Part shown: positions 4,830 to 47,470 of the stretch, in pieces
Layout of the letters: every line of letters starts with the position of its first letter
Numbering within the stretch: the stretch's first letter is position 1
Source of the DNA: Octopus sinensis
Taxonomy: Eukaryota
NCBI RefSeq assembly: GCF_006345805.1
Contig: NC_043018.1
Location: 27,838,001 to 27,902,000 of the forward strand
Direction: 5' to 3'
Length of the DNA stretch: 64,000 bases
Notes under the pieces: model-generated
The model's input: the letters and a program-made list of their open reading frames with translations, nothing else
Told to the model about the DNA's origin: nothing
The model's database searches: none
Position numbers and translations under genes: made by a program

Positions 4830-5611
4830 AGCCGCTGATGGTACTACTATTACTACTCTATTGCTGCTACAACAACAATTACTACTACTTACTACTACTA
4901 CTACTACTACTACTATCACTACTTCTACTACTACTACTACTACTACTTCTACTACTACTATCACTACTACTACTACTACTATTACTACTAATACTACTAC
5001 TACTACTACAATAAAAGCCACAGTAATATTAATCACGACAACAACGGCGTCTGTGGCGAAGATGTTTTTGAGCGTGATTAGGATATGAAAGAGAGATCTC
5101 TCTCGTTTCTCTCTGTTACTCTTTCTTCTTCTTCTCTTCTTCTTCTTCTTCTTCTTCTTCTTCTTCTTTTCTTCTTCTTCTTCTTCTTCTTCTTCTTCTT
5201 CTTCCGCTTCTTCCCTCCTCTTCTTCTTCTTCTTCTTCTTCTCCCCCTCCTCCTCCTCCTCCTCCTCCTTCTTCTTCTCCCCCTCCTCCTCCTCCTCCTC
5301 CTCCTCCTCCTTCTTCTTCTTCTTCTTCTTATCTTCTTAATATTTTATTCCTTCTTTTCTTCCTCTTTTCCTCCCTATCTAGTCTCTCTCTCTTTCTCTC
5401 TCTCTTTCTCTCAATCAATCTATCCACTCACATGCATACACACGCACAAAGATAAACACATACACACGCATATACAATAGTAGAATAAAACAAGAGAGTT
5501 CGTTTAATTTTTCCGTTTGATCATTATAACATCGTAAATTGCATAATCTTTACGCGTGTTTCCCCACCAAATACTTGTGTGTTATGTAGTACGTTATGCT
5601 AGGAAATATAT

Positions 5612-6516
5612 GACGGTGAAACGTATCACACTGAAATGCGGGGTTGTGAAATGTGCGACAGTGAATTGTGTGTAGGTGAGATTATCAGTGTGAAATGTGT
5701 GACAGTGGAATGTGTAACGGTAGAATGTGTCACAGTGAAATAAGTGACGGAGGATATGCGACGATGAAATGTGTGACAGTAGAATGTGTCACAGTGAAAT
5801 AAGTGACGGAGAAAATGCGGCGGTGAAATGTGTGACAGGAAAATGTGCCACGGGGAAATGTGTGACACTGGAATGTGTGACGGGAGAATCTGCCACGATG
5901 AAATGTGTGACGGGAGAATAATGTTACGGTGAAATATGTCACATTGGAATGTGTGACAGGAGGATGTGCCACGGTGAAATGTGTGACAGTGGAATGATTG
6001 ACGGTAGAATGTGTCATAGTGAAATATGTGACGGAGAATGTGCGACGGTGAAATGTGTGACAGTGGAATGTGTGACAGGAAAATGTGCCACGGGGAAATC
6101 TGTGACAGTGAAATGTGTGACGGGAGAATCTGCCACGATGAAATGTGTGACGAGATAATATGTTACGGTGAAATATGTCACAGTGGAATGTGTGACAGGA
6201 GAATGATTGAAGGTAGAATTTACCTCAGCGAAATGTGTGACGGCAGAATGCCACACGGTGAAATGTGTGACGAGAAAATATGCTACAGTGAAATGTGTGA
6301 CAGTGGAATGTGTGACGGGAGAATGTGCCACGCCGAAATGTGTGACAGTGGAATGTGTAACGGGAGAATGGCCCACGGTGAAATGTGAGACAGTGGAATG
6401 TGTGACGGTAAAATATGTGATGGGAGAATGCTCCACAGTGAAATGTTTGACAGTGGAATGTTCTACGGTGAAATGTGTCACGGTAGACTGCCACGGTGAA
6501 AGGTATCCCGGTGAAA
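5612..6516. repeat. 15-bp minisatellite (GTGAAATGTGTGACG variants), about 60 units
   Basis: Units include GTGAAATGTGTGACG, GTGGAATGTGTGACA and GGAGAATGTGCCACG. The block starting at 5838 recurs at 6078 (240-bp higher-order period). Confidence 0.9.
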
Positions 6517-6540
6517 TATAAACTTCCAAAAACATACAAG

Positions 6541-10482: not shown

Positions 10483-10556
<74 letters not shown>

Positions 10557-10562
10557 CTATAT

Positions 10563-10625
<63 letters not shown>

Positions 10626-10738
10626 TGTAAAAAGTGAAAAAACTACAGAAGGCTTGTTTTAAAAGGTTAAAAATATATATTTGAGTCAATATGTCTGAAG
10701 AATATTATAAATTTTTTTCTTACAATGACATAGTTTAG

Positions 10739-10778
10739 AAGAAATGACCGGTTTCGCGTTTAGCTTTTCAAATTTCTT
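10739..10778 (-). ncRNA. Minimal type I hammerhead ribozyme, U3-A8 variant
   Basis: Minus strand reads AAGAAAT-TTGAAAA-GC-TAAAC-GC-GAAAC-CG-GTC-ATTTCTT. It has a perfect 7-bp stem I, palindromic stem III ACCGGT and a GUC site, about 100 nt after the GIY-YIG stop. Confidence 0.8.
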
Positions 10779-10874
10779 ACATCGTTATGTTTATGTTGAG
10801 AAGAGTTATCGTTATGTTTATGTTGAAAAGAGTTCTAGATAAGTGATTTCTTCCGGTGTAAGGGAGATAATCGC

Positions 10875-11622
10875 TTAAAATTTTTTGCCTTTCCCTTTGG
10901 GTGAATTTCTCTGTATGAGTATGTTGGAATGGTTAAGTCTGGGCTTGTACTTTTCAATGAAGAATGTTTCCTTGTTTAGTCTAATTTGTGTTGGTGTTCC
11001 GATAGCACATTGGTAAAATGGAAAGATTAAAAATTGTGGTAGTAGTTGCTTTGCGCATTTCTCAATGTGCTCACTAAAAGGTATCATTCTGTATTCTGGG
11101 AATGCAATCTGTTGTCGATGTAGTGTGCATCTACGTCTGAGTGATAGTCCCGTGGATCCCACGTAGTCTTGGTGGCAGCCCGAGCATTTTATGACATAAA
11201 TTATGTTTTCAGAGGCACAAGTAAAATTAGATTTGATCTTGAATTTCTGTCCCTCTTTGAAGAGGAATTCTTATCCTTCTAGCAGGTTTGGACATGTTGC
11301 ACAGTTCGGTCTAACACATTTTTTTACTTTTGCATCCGTAATTTCAGAAAACAATTTGCCTTTGTGAGAATTTTTAAGTGATTTAGGTTGTTTGTAGCTT
11401 TTAATGATTGGTGTATGTTTTAGAATTTCCTTTAATTTGGGTCCTTATGAAGTATTGGTAAATTCTGGGTGATGATGGTGAAGGCTTCTTTGTTTCTGGG
11501 GTTGTATGTGGATATGTAAGGTAGTATTTTCGAAGAAGGTGTGTTGTTGTGTTGAACTTTTCTTAAAGTTTCTATGTTGATTTCTGTTGCACGTCTGATT
11601 CCACCCTCTATAAAACCAAAAG
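10875..11622 (-). pseudogene. Penelope-like linker plus GIY-YIG endonuclease remnant
   Basis: LPYISTYNPRN...KKCVRPNCATCP...FTCASENIIYVIKCSGCHQDYVGSTGLSLRRRCTLHRQQI...FSEHIEKC...RLNKETFFIEKYKPRLN, interrupted by a frameshift and a stop. Confidence 0.88.
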
Positions 11623-11727
11623 GAGCTCCCATTCTTGGATATACTAATTAAAAAAATTAACCTTAAAATAGAAACAGACATTTTTTACAAAGCCACAGAC
11701 GCCAAACAATACCTTCTTTTTAATTCC
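11623..11727 (+). pseudogene. Inverted Penelope RT C-terminal fragment
   Basis: ELPFLDILIKKINLKIETDIFYKATDAKQYLLFNS matches the Penelope RT pattern PFLD...T..Y.K.TD...YL.F.S. Confidence 0.85.
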
Positions 11728-11982
11728 AAAGAAAGACCAAAGAAGGAGGGGAAGTAGGAACGGCCAACGTACCATGTGATGTTACACACACGCATCCAGA
11801 TAAAATCTTTGACCAACGTATGTCACTACGTAGTCATCCAACTTGCTAGATGCAACAGCCAAGTCTCTTGCAGATCGGACGACCAGCTTAATCGAAGGTT
11901 ACAGACTGAGCCGTTTGTCGCACCATATTTATTTGCGCCTTTGTTTACTTCGTTGTCTCTTGATCTGCCGTTTATATATATA

Positions 11983-12025
<43 letters not shown>

Positions 12026-27785: not shown

Positions 27786-27973
27786 AATAATAATAATATT
27801 TCGTTTTTGGATTTGGTTTGCAAGATTCTTTATATGAGTTCGTGTGTTGAAGCATATACTGTTGTGTCTGGGGAGAGTCATTCTCTTTTAGTGCCTTATT
27901 ATTTAACACACTCACCGGTAAAATTTCCACTTATTTCTTATTTTTATTTTCTAAAATTTTCGTCGTGTCTTGC

Positions 27974-28005
27974 AACCTTTTCAATAGTCGACTATTGAAA
28001 AGGTT
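27974..28005. repeat. Perfect 32-bp palindrome
   Basis: AACCTTTTCAATAGTC|GACTATTGAAAAGGTT. Confidence 0.9.
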
Positions 28006-32165: not shown

Positions 32166-33620
32166 GGTAAAGACCTCCTTCGGTCATGAACAACTATGGG
32201 ATTGCACATAGAAAGTTCCCCTCTGAGGCACAAGTCCAAGCAAGGTTGTTCATGGAAGACCAGCTGTCGCCCATATATTCCAGTCTCGTCTCTCCACATC
32301 ATCTCTCTATATATAAACGGCAAAATGTCTGTGTGTGTGTCCTTTATACAAATCCACAATTTTTCAGTTAAAGGGCTCGCACTTTCTATGGTCATTTAAA
32401 ACCATCCAAGGGTGGTCGTGCACATCTTTATATTTCCCTAGTCACCCCGCAAAGCCATTAAAAAATCAATAGAAGTGACTTTTTAGTTAATTTTTTTATC
32501 CAAAACCCAATCAAAATGCCCGAAACTTGATACGCCAATTGAATGCCAGCTAGCTGTATGTGATTGGTCGGAGATTTGGACAGTACTCGCGTGTATGTGC
32601 GCACGCACGCAGCTCTATATGCATGCACTAGCACTATGACCCGGCGTTTACAGGTCATAGTGATAGTTATATATACAAACGGTAAAGGGTAAAGACCCCC
32701 TTTCGGTCATGAACGACCATGGGATTGCACCTAGAAAGTTTCCCTCCAAGGCACAAGTCTGGGCAAGGTTGTTCTTATGGAAGACAAGCAGTAGCCCATA
32801 TATTCCAGTCTCGTCTCTCCACATCATTATATATACAAAGCGTAAAGGGTAAAGACCCCCTTCGGTCATGACCGGCCATGGGATTGCACCTAGAAAGTTT
32901 CCCTCCGAGGCACAAATCTGGGCAAGGTTGTTCTTATGGAAGACAAGCAGTAGCCCATATATTCCAGTCTCGTCTCCGCCACATCATTATATATACAAAG
33001 CGTAAAGGGTAAAGACCCCCTTCGGTCATGACTGGCCATGGGATTGCACCTAGAAAGTTTCCCTCCGAGGCACAAATCTGGGCAAGGTTGTTCTTATGGA
33101 AGACAAGCAGTAGCCCATATATTCCAGTCTCGTCTCTCCACATCATTATATTACAAAGCGTAAGGGTAAGACCCCCTTCGGTCATGAGCGGCCATGGGAT
33201 TGCACCTAGAAAGTTTCCCTCCGAGGCACAAGTCTGGGCAAGGTTGTTCTTATGGAGACCAGCAGTCACCCATGATTTCAGTCTCGTCTCTCCACATCAT
33301 TATATATACAAAGCGTAAAGGGTAAAGACCCCCTTCGGTCATGAGCGGCCATGGGATTGCACCTAGAAAGTTTCCCTCCGAGGCACAAATCTGGGCAAGG
33401 TTGTTCTTATGGAAGACCAGCAGTCACCCATGAATTTCAGTCTCATCTCACTACATCATTATATATACAAAGGGTAAAGGGTAAGAACCCCCTTAGGTTA
33501 TGAATGTCTATGGGATTGCACCAACAAAGTTACCTTCCGAAGCACAAGTCCAGGCAAAGTTGTTTTGATAGAAGACCGGCAGTGTCCCATGTATAACCAG
33601 CCTCCTCACTCCACGCCACC
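32166..33620. repeat. ~160-bp tandem array (7 units) derived from a SINE 3' end
   Basis: Units start at about 32166, 32688, 32848, 33008, 33165, 33321 and 33480. The last unit continues into the SINE body. Confidence 0.92.
32302..32666 (+). mobile_element. Non-autonomous Helitron (365 bp)
   Basis: A|TC 5' end and a 3' hairpin at 32627-32667 ending (C>A)TAG|T, with no TSD. The empty site CCACATCA|TTATATATAC is visible in sister units. Confidence 0.88.
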
Positions 33621-34847: not shown

Positions 34848-36320
34848 GAGTGAGAGCAATACTCAGACAGAGCTGAATGCAAGAACAGGATCGAAGCAAT
34901 CAATGCATTAGCTATACCAGTCGTGACTTACAGTTTCAATATTGTTAACTGGTCAATTACTGAAATATCAGCTCGACAGAAAAAAGGAAACTGTTGACAA
35001 TGCATAGAATGCACCACCCTAAGGCAGATACAGAACGACTCCTATCTGCCAAGAAAGAGGGAGGCCGTGGTCTTTTTGCAACTGGCAATAACAATGAAGA
35101 TTGCTACAATTGGCCTAGACACCTACCTGAAAAACTCTCTGAGGACTGGATGTTAAAACTTGTCTCAAAACATGAAAACAAGAAAGCATCATACTCAGTC
35201 ACAAAACAGGCAAAGGTATATCTAAGTGAATTCCGAATACAACCAATTTCGGAATTAGAGATAGATATACAAGAAACAAGCACAGAAAAAGCTAGGCGCA
35301 TGAAAACCCGTGCCAAAACTGCGGCCTTAGATATTCTGAAATAATGGCAAGAAAAACCTCTCTATGGCAAATACCCCAAGAGAGCGAATAATGCAGATAT
35401 CGACAAAGCCCTGACCCATCAATGGCTATGGCCTCTGGCTTAAAATCTGAAACAGAGGGGTTTATCATAGCAGCTCAAGATCAATGCCTACCAACAAGAA
35501 ACTACCAGGCCAACATATTAAAGATCAGAAGCAGTCCAACGTGTCGTGTATGCAAGCAACAAAATGAAACCATTGACCATGTGGTCTCCAAGTGCAGTCT
35601 TCTAGCGCCTACAGAGTATCTCAACAGGCACGATAGAGCTGCACAATATATTCACTGGGTAATCTGTAAAAACCTGGATTTGCCCCATGAAAAAAACTGG
35701 TGGGAACCAAACCACCCCCAGTGCTTGAAAATGACCACATCTCACTCCTCTGGAACTTCACCATTCAAACTGACAGAAGATAGATGCAAATAGGCCAGAC
35801 ATCATATTGAAAGACTTCAACAAAGAACATGCCTCCTCATTGACATGACTGTCCCAATCGATATAACCGTATCTGTCAACCTACCTACCAAAAACTGAGC
35901 AAATATAAAGATCTTGAAATAGAAATCAGCAAAATGTGGAAGCTGAAGACTAAAACCATACCTGTTGTCATAGGTGCCCTGGGAATGATAGCAAAAGGGC
36001 TGATAGCTACCTAACTCAGATACCAGGAAACCCAAAAATGGCAGAAGTTCAAAAGATAGTGCTCATGGGAACTGCTCATATCCTACGCAAAATACTCTCT
36101 ATGTAATCTCAAGGTTTAAAACAAACATAATTTTCGGTTTTAAAAAAAAAAAAAAAAAAACTTTTTTTTTAGACATTCATTAGTACAACATCCCCACCCC
36201 CAAATATATGGCACACTAGGCATAACAACAACATGAACTTCCAACCCTGTTGTCTCTTGAGGTCTCTGGGTGAGACTTGGAGCCAACTTGTACAAATATA
36301 AAGCAAAAGTCAAACATAGA
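34847..36320 (+). mobile_element. R4/Dong-clade non-LTR retrotransposon 3' part in (TAA)n
   Basis: AINALAIPVVTYSF...HHPKADTERL...EGGRGL...LKSETEGFIIAAQDQ...CRVC...ETIDHVVSKC (CCHC)...RHD...RPDII (restriction-like endonuclease)...KYKDLEIEI...PVVIGALG. The ORF is frameshifted and (TAA)n lies on both sides. Confidence 0.92.
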
Positions 36321-45587: not shown

Positions 45588-45805
45588 ACTCATAAGGACC
45601 GGTTTCCCAGTTTCCATGGCATGTCAATTCCCCACATGGACGTGACGCCAGTCTGCTGCAGGATTACTAATTTGTTTTCAGCTGAGTGGACAGGAGCAAC
45701 GTAAAATGACGTGTTTTGCTCAAGAACACATCGCGTTGTCCAGTCCAAGACTCGAAACCACAATCTTACGATCATGAGTCCAACACCCCTAACCACTAAG
45801 CCACC
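45588..45805 (-). mobile_element. tRNA-derived SINE (CORE-like middle, family-B-like tail)
   Basis: Minus strand reads GTGGCTTAGTGGTTAGGGG...GGTTTCGAGTC...TTCTTGAGCAAAACAC...GGAAACTGGGAAACCGG. Confidence 0.75.
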
Positions 45806-46753
45806 CTGAATGGACTGGAACAACGTGAAATGAAGTGTTTTCCATTATAGCTTTGAAAAAATAACTGTTCAAATCGAACTGCACTCTTCAAAACTTGCAC
45901 TAAGAATAAGGAAAAGATAAAATTACTACCTGCTTTTACAGCAAGTTGATGCAGGTAGTTTATCCTGTCCACCCCCGACTTTTAGTACATGCAACTGAAA
46001 AAAACCCGCATTATTTATAGGATAATCCAATAATATTTACATATTAAATTCCCAAAGTGTGTAATTTTTCTGGTATATATTACATCTAATTTTCCTTTGC
46101 ATCCCTTATTCGTCCAAAAGCACTAACAAAGTAAATAAATTTCGAAGGATTGAAGGTCAGTAGTAGAATTTATGAATAAATAAGGCATATTGACAAGTTA
46201 AGGCGCCGGAATGGCTGTGTAGCCTGCTTACTGCTACCAAGTTCGGCGTTGTTTTTCGTCGCGGTGGAAGTTTAGTCGTACGTGAAAAATTGAACATTTG
46301 AAGCACGACTACAGATAAAGCATTTGTTTTTGGGGAGCTTAGTGGGGTCTGCTGTTTGTATTTATGTTTTTTTTTCGAACAGGGGTCCCCACTGGGTTCC
46401 AGGCATTTGTTTGCCAGTGGTCGTGTAAGAAGACTCACTTCGTAGTGAGAATTGTATTTATTTTGGGAGGCGTGTCCCTCCGAAAACTTTTTAAAAATTT
46501 CTATGACTGTGTTTGTGCCCTTTCAAGTGGATTTTACCATAAAGCATAGGAATACAGCCAGAGTTGGGCGGAATACAGTTTGGATTATCAGAGTAGCAGA
46601 ACTGTGTTGTGTTGTGTTACCATTTGGGATTATTTTCCTTCGCTCTTTCTTCTCCTGTCTGTCTTTCTGATCTTTTTTGAGTTTCTTTATAGACTTTCAT
46701 TTGAAAATTTTGATTTTTGTTTGTGGATTTTTATTTTTGTTTTGGCTATAAAC

Positions 46754-47470
46754 ATGGCAACTGTGAATTCCGCTTTGGAGTGGCAAATTGTGGCCCCCGT
46801 AGAATGGTTGAAAAATATACAGAGAGGACGGTAGTGTTAAGGACATATTCTAAGGTCCTTGACACCATTAAGGTTTTCTCTCAGGAAGAAATTGAGGAGG
46901 AGTTGACAGACTATCTGTCAACTGTTAGGTTTATTCTCAGGGGTGCGAAGTTCGCAACTGTGTGTGTATTTTTTGACACCCTTGCGGAAGCTCGGGATTT
47001 TGCGAGCATGCCTTTGGAGGGGGAGAAAATTTTGTTTCTCCCTATTTATGGCGGTAGAATGTTGACAAGAGCCTGGGTGTGTGGGCTGCCACACGGTATA
47101 GAGGTCGAGTGGATAGAAGACATTATCCGTCGGGGTCTGGGTGGCGGCCCTGCCAGGCTCTTAAATATAAGATTATTGCCTGCGGTTGATTGGGTCGGCT
47201 CAAAATTGCTTTTGACCCTATGGACCCAATCAGCCGATGATCTGGTTTTACCAGATTTTTTAGCAATGGCCGGTTCCAGGTATCCGGTGATGGTTGAGGG
47301 ACGACCCCACCAAATTTTACCTGTGCCTGGAATCGAGCCATATAAAGAAGAACTGTTGTCGGGACCAGGCAAGTGTCCTGGAATAGTTAATTGAAAAGGT
47401 GTCCCCTGCTCCCCCAGTGGAGGAAAAAGTCGAGGGGAGGAGGTAACCTCCTCGAAAACAAAGGGGAAGA
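46754..47470 (+). pseudogene. L1/Tx1-type ORF1 (gag-like) remnant
   Basis: ATG at 46754, then a frameshift into the 46717-47394 ORF (...AWVCGLPHGIEVEWI...LPDFLAMAGSRYPVMVEGRP). A +1 frameshift then gives TKFYLCLESSHIKKNC, a decayed CCHC knuckle. Confidence 0.65.

What the first reader, a model, noticed from the sequence alone, without database searches (positions are those of the whole stretch)
10739..10778. U3-A8 compensatory hammerhead at the 3' end of a Penelope-like element
The core reads UUGAAAA instead of CUGANGA, so both partners of the established C3-G8 tertiary pair have changed together. Stem I is a perfect 7 bp and GAAAC-CG-GUC is intact. The double change argues for selection on catalysis, and standard CUGANGA searches would miss it. 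Its position just after the GIY-YIG ORF fits a pLTR.
Basis: partly seen in the sequence, partly recalled or inferred. Interest (0 to 1): 0.7.

Follow-up and report, generated by a model that had tools for sequence, protein, structure and literature searches.

The report
Penelope-element hammerhead with U3-A8 core
A broken copy of a Penelope-like jumping gene ends in a short sequence shaped like a self-cutting hammerhead RNA, whose core pair reads U-A instead of C-G, likely a trait of the whole element family and predicted to cut only as a dimer; the swap is already known from other Penelope-like elements, so this is a new example, not a new kind.

Summary
On the minus strand (10778 to 10739) lies a type I hammerhead motif: 7-bp stem I, core UUGAAAA (U3-A8), 2-bp stem II, GAAA, palindromic ACCGGU, GUC site. 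It sits 134 nt behind the endonuclease end of a decayed, 5'-inverted, Neptune/Nematis-type Penelope-like element in (TA)n. Chance is unlikely (1 of 20,000 shuffles), and the predicted lowest-energy fold of two copies is the hammerhead dimer. No family DNA copy was reachable, so the consensus is untested. Two indirect results favour an inherited trait over decay. This copy differs little from an intact relative (13 substituted codons, plus 38 of 38 identical in the inverted piece). A distant relative (L001, 37% identical) has its own U3-A8 hammerhead of the same build at the same place. The swap itself is published: natural U3-A8 hammerheads (Perreault 2011) and about 1,300 U3-A8 hits in Schistosoma, found via a Penelope-like element, one with the same core letters (Cervera 2014). 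This lone, broken copy is likely inert; catalysis is untested. Verdict: new member of a known kind, modest interest. The open point is whether U3-A8 is common in zinc-linker elements and missed by CUGANGA searches.

The parts
10739..10778 (-). Type I hammerhead motif with U3-A8 core
   Evidence: Sequence and descriptor scan; shuffles; dimer fold
10765..10771 (-). Core positions 3-9, UUGAAAA; U3 = 10771, A8 = 10766; no extra base between A9 and G10.1
   Evidence: 54 of 56 published metazoan representatives have the extra base, 2 lack it
10756..10764 (-). Stem II, 2 bp, closed by G10.1-C11.1, 5-nt loop
   Evidence: 2-bp stems II are described as common (PMC3088659)
10747..10752 (-). Self-complementary ACCGGU; predicted 6-bp shared helix III of a dimer
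   Evidence: Two-strand MFE equals the hammerhead dimer, -13.3 kcal/mol
10745..10746 (-). Predicted cleavage site, after C17 of GUC
   Evidence: Hammerhead numbering applied to the sequence; not tested
10621..10904 (-). 3' untranslated region / pseudo-LTR, ending at the (TA)n tract
   Evidence: Position between the endonuclease end and the microsatellite; pLTR status inferred, no second copy in the window
10781..10834 (.). 27-nt tandem duplication (96% identical) abutting stem I
10905..11623 (-). Decayed ORF remnant: end of RT thumb, CxxxxCxxC linker, GIY-YIG endonuclease with CCHH residues; one stop and several A-run frameshifts
   Evidence: tblastn and frameshift-aware alignment to P0003; Pfam GIY-YIG E = 0.0023, below the curated cut-off
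11614..11727 (+). Inverted RT-thumb fragment of the same element (5' inversion)
   Evidence: 38 of 38 residues identical to P0003 residues 4-41
11728..11970 (.). Unassigned segment between the inverted fragment and the (TA)n flank
   Evidence: No credible match to the fetched PLE proteins (best E 0.01 on a 270-nt subject)
10484..10620 (.). (TA)n flank at the element's 3' end
11972..12024 (.). (TA)n flank at the element's 5' end

Best explanation
The motif has the full type I hammerhead layout with a U3-A8 core, sits at the 3' end of a broken Penelope-like element, and is likely the family's inherited pseudo-LTR ribozyme, predicted to cut after GUC only when two copies pair as a dimer. In the active parent element, arranged in tandem, two pLTR hammerheads on one transcript (or on two) would pair through the palindromic ACCGGU into a shared 6-bp helix III and exchange stem I strands. 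The U3-A8 pair would hold nucleotide 8 in place so that its 2'-OH can act as general acid, with G12 as base. Cleavage would trim the element RNA from a longer transcript. Shown: sequence, position, element anatomy. Computed: non-randomness, dimer fold, low decay. Inferred: family consensus, activity, role. This copy is 5'-truncated, inverted, frameshifted and has one hammerhead, so it is likely inert.
For: Motif far beyond chance. Two-strand MFE is exactly the hammerhead dimer: -13.3 versus -6.0 kcal/mol for two monomer MFEs; the monomer hammerhead fold costs +3.5. Low decay: against intact P0003, 13 substituted codons remain after dropping 3 at the inversion junction and 4 inside a compensated double frameshift (20 of 241 in all), and 38 of 38 are identical in the inverted piece. 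At most 4 C>T/G>A events on about 170 exposed sites (2.3%, upper 95% bound 5.2%) give a posterior for a family-level U3-A8 of 0.97 or 0.91 with a prior of 2/56. Of 3 related loci found, 2 include a 3' region and both carry a hammerhead there: L001 (zinc-linker type, 37% identical) has UUGAUAA, no extra base, and a palindromic 4-nt helix III insert, 177 nt into its 3' region; L003 (no linker) has canonical CUGAAGAA (4 and 5 of 20,000 shuffles). The descriptor was written before L001 was read. Literature: U3-A8 is natural and was reported active in vitro (PMC3088659 section 8); G12/G8 chemistry (PMC6155905 passage); PLE hammerheads work as dimers with low rates (PMC4209133; PMC6765202).
Against: No DNA of any family copy was reached: none in the window, 0 exact matches in prokaryotic genome contigs, no read-through protein over the motif, P0004's tail uninformative. 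The posterior depends on the prior: 0.91 or 0.73 at 1%, 0.67 or 0.35 at 0.2%. L001 is distant: rank 78 of 111 by identity and not grouped with P0003 in a quick, poorly resolved tree of 70 rows, so it does not prove shared ancestry of the pair. For L001 cut to its 3-bp proximal stem I, the hammerhead dimer (+1.0) is not the MFE (-10.8). C>T and G>A are the commonest decay changes (general knowledge), and this copy has many A-run indels, so the A-run in the core may not be the family's. No Rfam support. No activity data.
Confidence: 0.8

Rival explanations
1. The family has a canonical C3-G8 hammerhead (or a U3-G8 wobble), and this dead copy gained U3 and A8 by neutral decay, or by C3U plus loss of G8 from CUGAAGAA.
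For: The copy is dead and mutated. 53 of 56 published representatives are C3-G8 and 1 is U3-G8. 4 of the 6 unpolarised substitutions could be C>T. The missing extra base after A9 fits a one-base loss.
Against: It needs two specific hits at about 2% per site, joint about 5e-4. None of the 5 clearly copy-specific substitutions is C>T or G>A. All other hammerhead positions are intact. L001 shows the same build, also without the extra base.
Confidence: 0.13
2. U3-A8 is the family sequence, but the motif no longer needs to cut: it is kept as an RNA structure (for example bound by the element's protein), or it drifted under A+T pressure with little catalytic selection.
For: Metazoan PLE hammerheads cleave poorly in vitro, and non-cleaving roles were left open by the authors (PMC4209133). 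Both U3-A8 cases here are in A+T-rich regions (GC 0.29 and 0.26) and the C3-G8 case in a richer one (0.38). Stem II is only 2 bp.
Against: G12, A13, A14, the GUC site and the 3-8 pairing are all kept, and both partners changed together. U3-A8 hammerheads were reported active in vitro (PMC3088659 citing Przybilski and Hammann 2007; the primary paper was not held).
Confidence: 0.15
3. The motif is a chance pattern, or a decayed scrap of reverse-transcriptase coding DNA from another element that happens to look like a hammerhead.
For: A Naiad coding stretch seen in a paper's supplement shares the 9-mer searched and a 14-nt run just after it (compared by eye only). The monomer fold is unremarkable.
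Against: 1 of 20,000 shuffles; the position is the one expected for a pLTR hammerhead; the dimer fold is the MFE. The 9-mer had 2 places in 584,131 characters, about what chance gives. No protein shares words with the translated region (only 34-109 aa proteins searched).
Confidence: 0.02

Closest known systems
Schistosoma mansoni U3-A8 min-hammerheads found via the Cercyon PLE (Cervera and de la Pena 2014, PMC4209133)
   Same: U3-A8 core in a PLE-type hammerhead; representative S. mansoni(4), marked as PLE-associated, has UUGAAAAA followed by G10.1; type I; dimer-dependent design.
   Different: They have an extra base after A9, longer stems II and no helix III insert. The window motif has no extra base, a 2-bp stem II, a 7-bp stem I and a palindromic helix III insert. 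No cephalopod is among their 56 representatives.
PLE hammerheads with a small palindromic helix III (Marsupenaeus japonicus, Saccoglossus kowalevskii(2), Aedes, Drosophila; PMC4209133)
   Same: Short palindromic helix III; M. japonicus and S. kowalevskii(2) also lack the extra base. The M. japonicus element is called Neptune-like (PMC8557442).
   Different: All of these have C3-G8.
Natural U3-A8 hammerheads (Perreault et al. 2011, PMC3088659)
   Same: Same covariation; 2-bp stem II and weak palindromic stem III also described.
   Different: The passages read do not tie the U3-A8 cases to Penelope-like elements.
Neptune/Nematis clades of EN+ Penelope-like elements (as described in PMC8557442)
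   Same: C-terminal GIY-YIG, CCHH residues, CX2-5CxxC linker, (TA)n target, inverted 5'-truncated piece.
   Different: Clade not fixed by an RT tree with named references; this copy lacks the RT core.

Membership tests
Type I hammerhead ribozyme | Three-way junction with the ends meeting in stem I | tested here: met
   Stem I 7 bp, stem II 2 bp, helix III complete only in the dimer
Type I hammerhead ribozyme | Core U4 G5 A6 A9, G12 A13 A14, A15.1-U16.1, H17 | tested here: met
   All present
Type I hammerhead ribozyme | Watson-Crick pair between positions 3 and 8 | tested here: met
   U3-A8, a published natural alternative to C3-G8; the literal CUGANGA string is not met
Type I hammerhead ribozyme | Match to an Rfam hammerhead model | tested here: not met
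   0 hammerhead among 3 matches at E up to 10; whether Rfam models cover minimal PLE variants was not tested
Type I hammerhead ribozyme | Self-cleavage 3' of nucleotide 17 | not testable with these tools
   Needs in vitro assay
PLE pLTR hammerhead | Lies in the repeat behind the endonuclease | tested here: met
   134 nt behind the endonuclease end; same place in L001 and L003
PLE pLTR hammerhead | Palindromic 15.2-16.2 region allowing a dimer | tested here: met
   ACCGGU; dimer is the two-strand MFE
PLE pLTR hammerhead | G10.1-C11.1 pair | tested here: met
PLE pLTR hammerhead | Extra base between positions 9 and 10.1 (consensus, not universal) | tested here: not met
   Absent here and in L001; absent in 2 of 56 published representatives; could be an A-run deletion in this copy
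PLE pLTR hammerhead | Present in both flanking repeats / conserved across family copies | not testable with these tools
   5'-truncated single copy; no other copy reached
EN+ Penelope-like element, Neptune/Nematis type | Single ORF with RT then C-terminal GIY-YIG | tested here: met
   Order shown in P0003 and in sister-family P0007 (RT Pfam PF00078, 69% identical); the window keeps only thumb and endonuclease
EN+ Penelope-like element, Neptune/Nematis type | CCHH motif and CX2-5CxxC linker | tested here: met
   Seen in the translation; linker in 90 of 97 fetched proteins with a recognisable GIY-YIG core
EN+ Penelope-like element, Neptune/Nematis type | RT phylogeny groups with named Neptune or Nematis references | not tested
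   No named references were available; the tree has unnamed rows only

The most novel reading that the evidence does not exclude
U3-A8 hammerheads without the extra base and with a short palindromic helix III are a recurrent or ancestral form among zinc-linker (Neptune-like) Penelope elements: both zinc-linker loci with a readable 3' region (the window and L001) have it. CUGANGA-based surveys would then undercount ribozymes in this clade, and some elements reported as hammerhead-free may carry such cores.
Probability: 0.25. Interest if true: 0.55.

Novelty: new member of a known kind. Interest (0 to 1): 0.3.

Why it matters
If the family consensus is U3-A8, this adds a natural case of core covariation in a host group and PLE clade not among the published representatives I could read, and it is a ready natural test of how a minimal dimeric hammerhead tolerates the weaker U-A pair. 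Its practical value is for annotation: descriptors should allow U3-A8. It does not change hammerhead chemistry or PLE biology, because both the covariation and its occurrence in PLE-type hammerheads are in print.

Tried and rejected
No second family copy in the window: blastn of 10640-11960 gave only hits of 24 nt or less; the other exact GAAACCGGTC at 45597-45606 has no hammerhead core. Exact pattern scan of prokaryotic genome contigs: 0. tblastn of P0003 against plasmids and phages: no match. Looking for predicted proteins that read through the motif and so reveal other copies' core: none; P0004's 76-residue tail gave only permissive placements, and its alignment to the window's 3' region was matched by 1 of 60 shuffles. 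MAFFT of four motifs did not align the cores, so no covariance model was built. Rfam gave no hammerhead (none among the 150 of 371 matches shown). Four palindromic helix III motifs searched in the Naiad/Chlamys/Hydra supplement gave 10 places; by eye none had a U3-A8 core, one had a C3-G8 core; this is a weak test. Pfam scan of 90 of 125 complex reading frames found no host gene, only one LINE zinc-binding remnant. The careful tree did not finish; the quick tree is largely unresolved. Names and source organisms of P0003-P0007 could not be looked up. Lunse et al. 2017 and Przybilski and Hammann 2007 were not held. Viral and metagenome contig collections stayed unchecked.

Full report
Observation. 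The reverse complement of 10739-10778 is a type I hammerhead layout: a perfect 7-bp stem I, core UUGAAAA (U3 at 10771, A8 at 10766), a 2-bp stem II closed by G10.1-C11.1, GAAAC, CG, and GUC with the predicted cut between 10746 and 10745. It is not chance. 1 of 20,000 shuffles of the 284-nt 3' region met a looser descriptor and none reached a 7-bp stem I; 1 of 150 whole-window resamples had such a hit. These descriptors were written after the motif was seen. The single strand folds no better than shuffles (z 0.53), and Rfam gives no hammerhead match.

The element. The window is microsatellite-rich animal DNA; its short repeats look like octopus SINEs, which is my recollection and comes from no call. 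A protein search found an intact close relative, P0003 (94% identical over the endonuclease), and a sister family, P0004/P0007, with RT followed by endonuclease. Against P0003 the locus reads: (TA)n, an unassigned 240-nt segment, an inverted RT-thumb piece on the plus strand (11614-11727, 38 of 38 residues identical), then on the minus strand the rest of the thumb, a CxxxxCxxC linker and the GIY-YIG domain (11623-10905), a 3' region with a 27-nt duplication and the hammerhead, then (TA)n. The copy has a stop and several A-run indels. C-terminal endonuclease, CCHH residues, zinc linker, (TA)n target and inverted 5' piece match the description of Neptune/Nematis-type elements (PMC8557442, passages). 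The clade was not fixed by a tree with named references.

Family trait or decay? No family DNA could be reached, so I used two indirect routes. First, decay rate. Of 241 codons aligned to P0003, 20 differ; 3 at the inversion junction and 4 in a compensated double frameshift were dropped, leaving 13. With P0007 as outgroup, 5 are specific to the window, 2 to P0003 and 6 cannot be placed; none of the 5 is C>T or G>A, and 4 of the 6 could be C>T. That is at most 4 events on about 170 exposed sites (2.3%, upper bound 5.2%). With the published frequency of U3-A8 among representatives (2 of 56) as prior, a family-level U3-A8 has posterior 0.97, or 0.91 at the upper bound. With a 1% prior it is 0.91 or 0.73, and with 0.2% it is 0.67 or 0.35. 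Second, relatives with DNA. A scan of prokaryotic genome contigs confirmed 3 of 66 candidate stretches as PLE-like, presumably stray eukaryotic contigs in MAGs (inference). L002 ends before its 3' region. L003, without a zinc linker, has a canonical CUGAAGAA minimal hammerhead. L001, with the linker and 37% identical to P0003, has a hammerhead 177 nt into its 3' region with core UUGAUAA, no extra base after A9, a 4-bp stem II and a palindromic ACAUGU; 4 of 20,000 shuffles met the descriptor. So U3-A8 occurs again at the same place with the same build. L001 is not a near relative (rank 78 of 111; not grouped with P0003 in a quick, poorly resolved tree), so shared ancestry and convergence cannot be told apart. 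Its 3-bp proximal stem I alone does not make the hammerhead dimer the best fold, though a longer piece folds a distal extension.

Mechanism. A monomer cannot close helix III around a 2-nt loop; forced into the hammerhead fold it costs +3.5 kcal/mol. Two copies fold, as their lowest-energy structure, into the hammerhead dimer with a shared 6-bp helix III and exchanged stem I strands (-13.3 versus -6.0). This is the model published for PLE hammerheads, which cleave weakly and as dimers, probably to process tandem transcripts (PMC4209133; PMC6765202). The general acid is the 2'-OH of nucleotide 8 and the base is G12 (PMC6155905), so a U-A pair can in principle stand in for C-G. Activity of this motif is untested, and this lone broken copy is likely inert.

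Comparison with what is known. Perreault et al. 2011 state that C3-G8 covaries to U3-A8 in several natural hammerheads and that such pairs were already shown active in vitro. Cervera and de la Pena 2014 found U3-A8 through the Schistosoma Cercyon PLE, with about 1,300 hits; their 56 representatives include UUGAUAAA and UUGAAAAA, one U3-G8, and 53 C3-G8, and no cephalopod. The Schistosoma cases have the extra base and no helix III insert, so the build here differs. Searches for 'hammerhead' with 'U3-A8', 'C3-G8' and 'covariation', 'C3U' and 'G8A', 'Penelope' and 'octopus' and 'Neptune', 'PLE', 'pLTR' showed no report of this family's ribozyme; the library lacks most subscription papers, and Lunse et al. 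2017, the most relevant survey, was not held and may already list such variants.

What I read. PMC4209133: parts 1-2 of 4 of the text, parts 1-2 of 3 of the supplement. PMC3088659: passages and section 8. PMC8557442: passages and two supplement searches. PMC11167929: part 1 of 4. bioRxiv 10.64898/2026.07.22.740005: part 1 of 5 and passages; its supplements are closed and might list relevant motifs. PMC6765202, PMC6155905, PMC6962438: passages. Lunse 2017 and Przybilski and Hammann 2007: reference entries only.

Verdict. A real pLTR hammerhead motif whose U3-A8 pair is probably inherited from the active family. It is a new member of a known kind; interest 0.3. The one lead that could raise it is the recurrence of U3-A8 in both zinc-linker loci examined, which a descriptor allowing U3-A8 on curated PLE libraries would test at once.

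Noticed in passing
window 27947-27987, minus strand (core at 27984): Second hit to the loose hammerhead descriptor, also U3-A8 (stem I 3 bp, stem II 4 bp, minimal helix III). No PLE reading frame nearby; it overlaps a 32-nt perfect palindrome behind a SINE-like remnant. The loose descriptor expects 0.04 hits per window (6 of 150 resamples). Could be a solo pLTR scrap or chance.
   Followed up: partly
window 10643-10723, minus strand: GTAAG 16 nt after the hammerhead and a CTGTAG about 80 nt later resemble a retained pLTR intron; D. virilis Penelope has a 75-bp one (PMC8557442). Read by eye, not scored.
   Followed up: no
L001 2148-2210 (contig JABSON010000348.1): A nearly intact zinc-linker PLE with its own U3-A8 hammerhead inside a bacterial MAG, most likely a stray eukaryotic contig.
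   Followed up: yes
L003 960-1005 and L002: Further PLE fragments in bacterial MAG contigs; L003 has a canonical C3-G8 minimal hammerhead.
   Followed up: partly
window 11330-11445: About five one- or two-base indels in A-runs within about 110 nt of the ORF remnant, while the rest has none; local slippage or long-read errors. It makes the exact A-run length in the hammerhead core uncertain.
   Followed up: partly
window 11728-11970: 240-nt segment inside the (TA)n-bounded insertion with no match to the fetched PLE proteins; may be untranslated element sequence or captured DNA.
   Followed up: partly
window 46714-47391, plus strand: 226-codon open frame of complex sequence with no Pfam match at useful E; possibly ORF1 of another retroelement.
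   Followed up: no
window 35392-35790, plus strand: LINE remnant with a zinc-binding RT-associated domain (Pfam zf-RVT, E 9.5e-06).
   Followed up: no
window 32667-33614 and 5603-6519: Tandem arrays with units of about 160 nt and shorter degenerate units; no hammerhead hit in them.
   Followed up: partly
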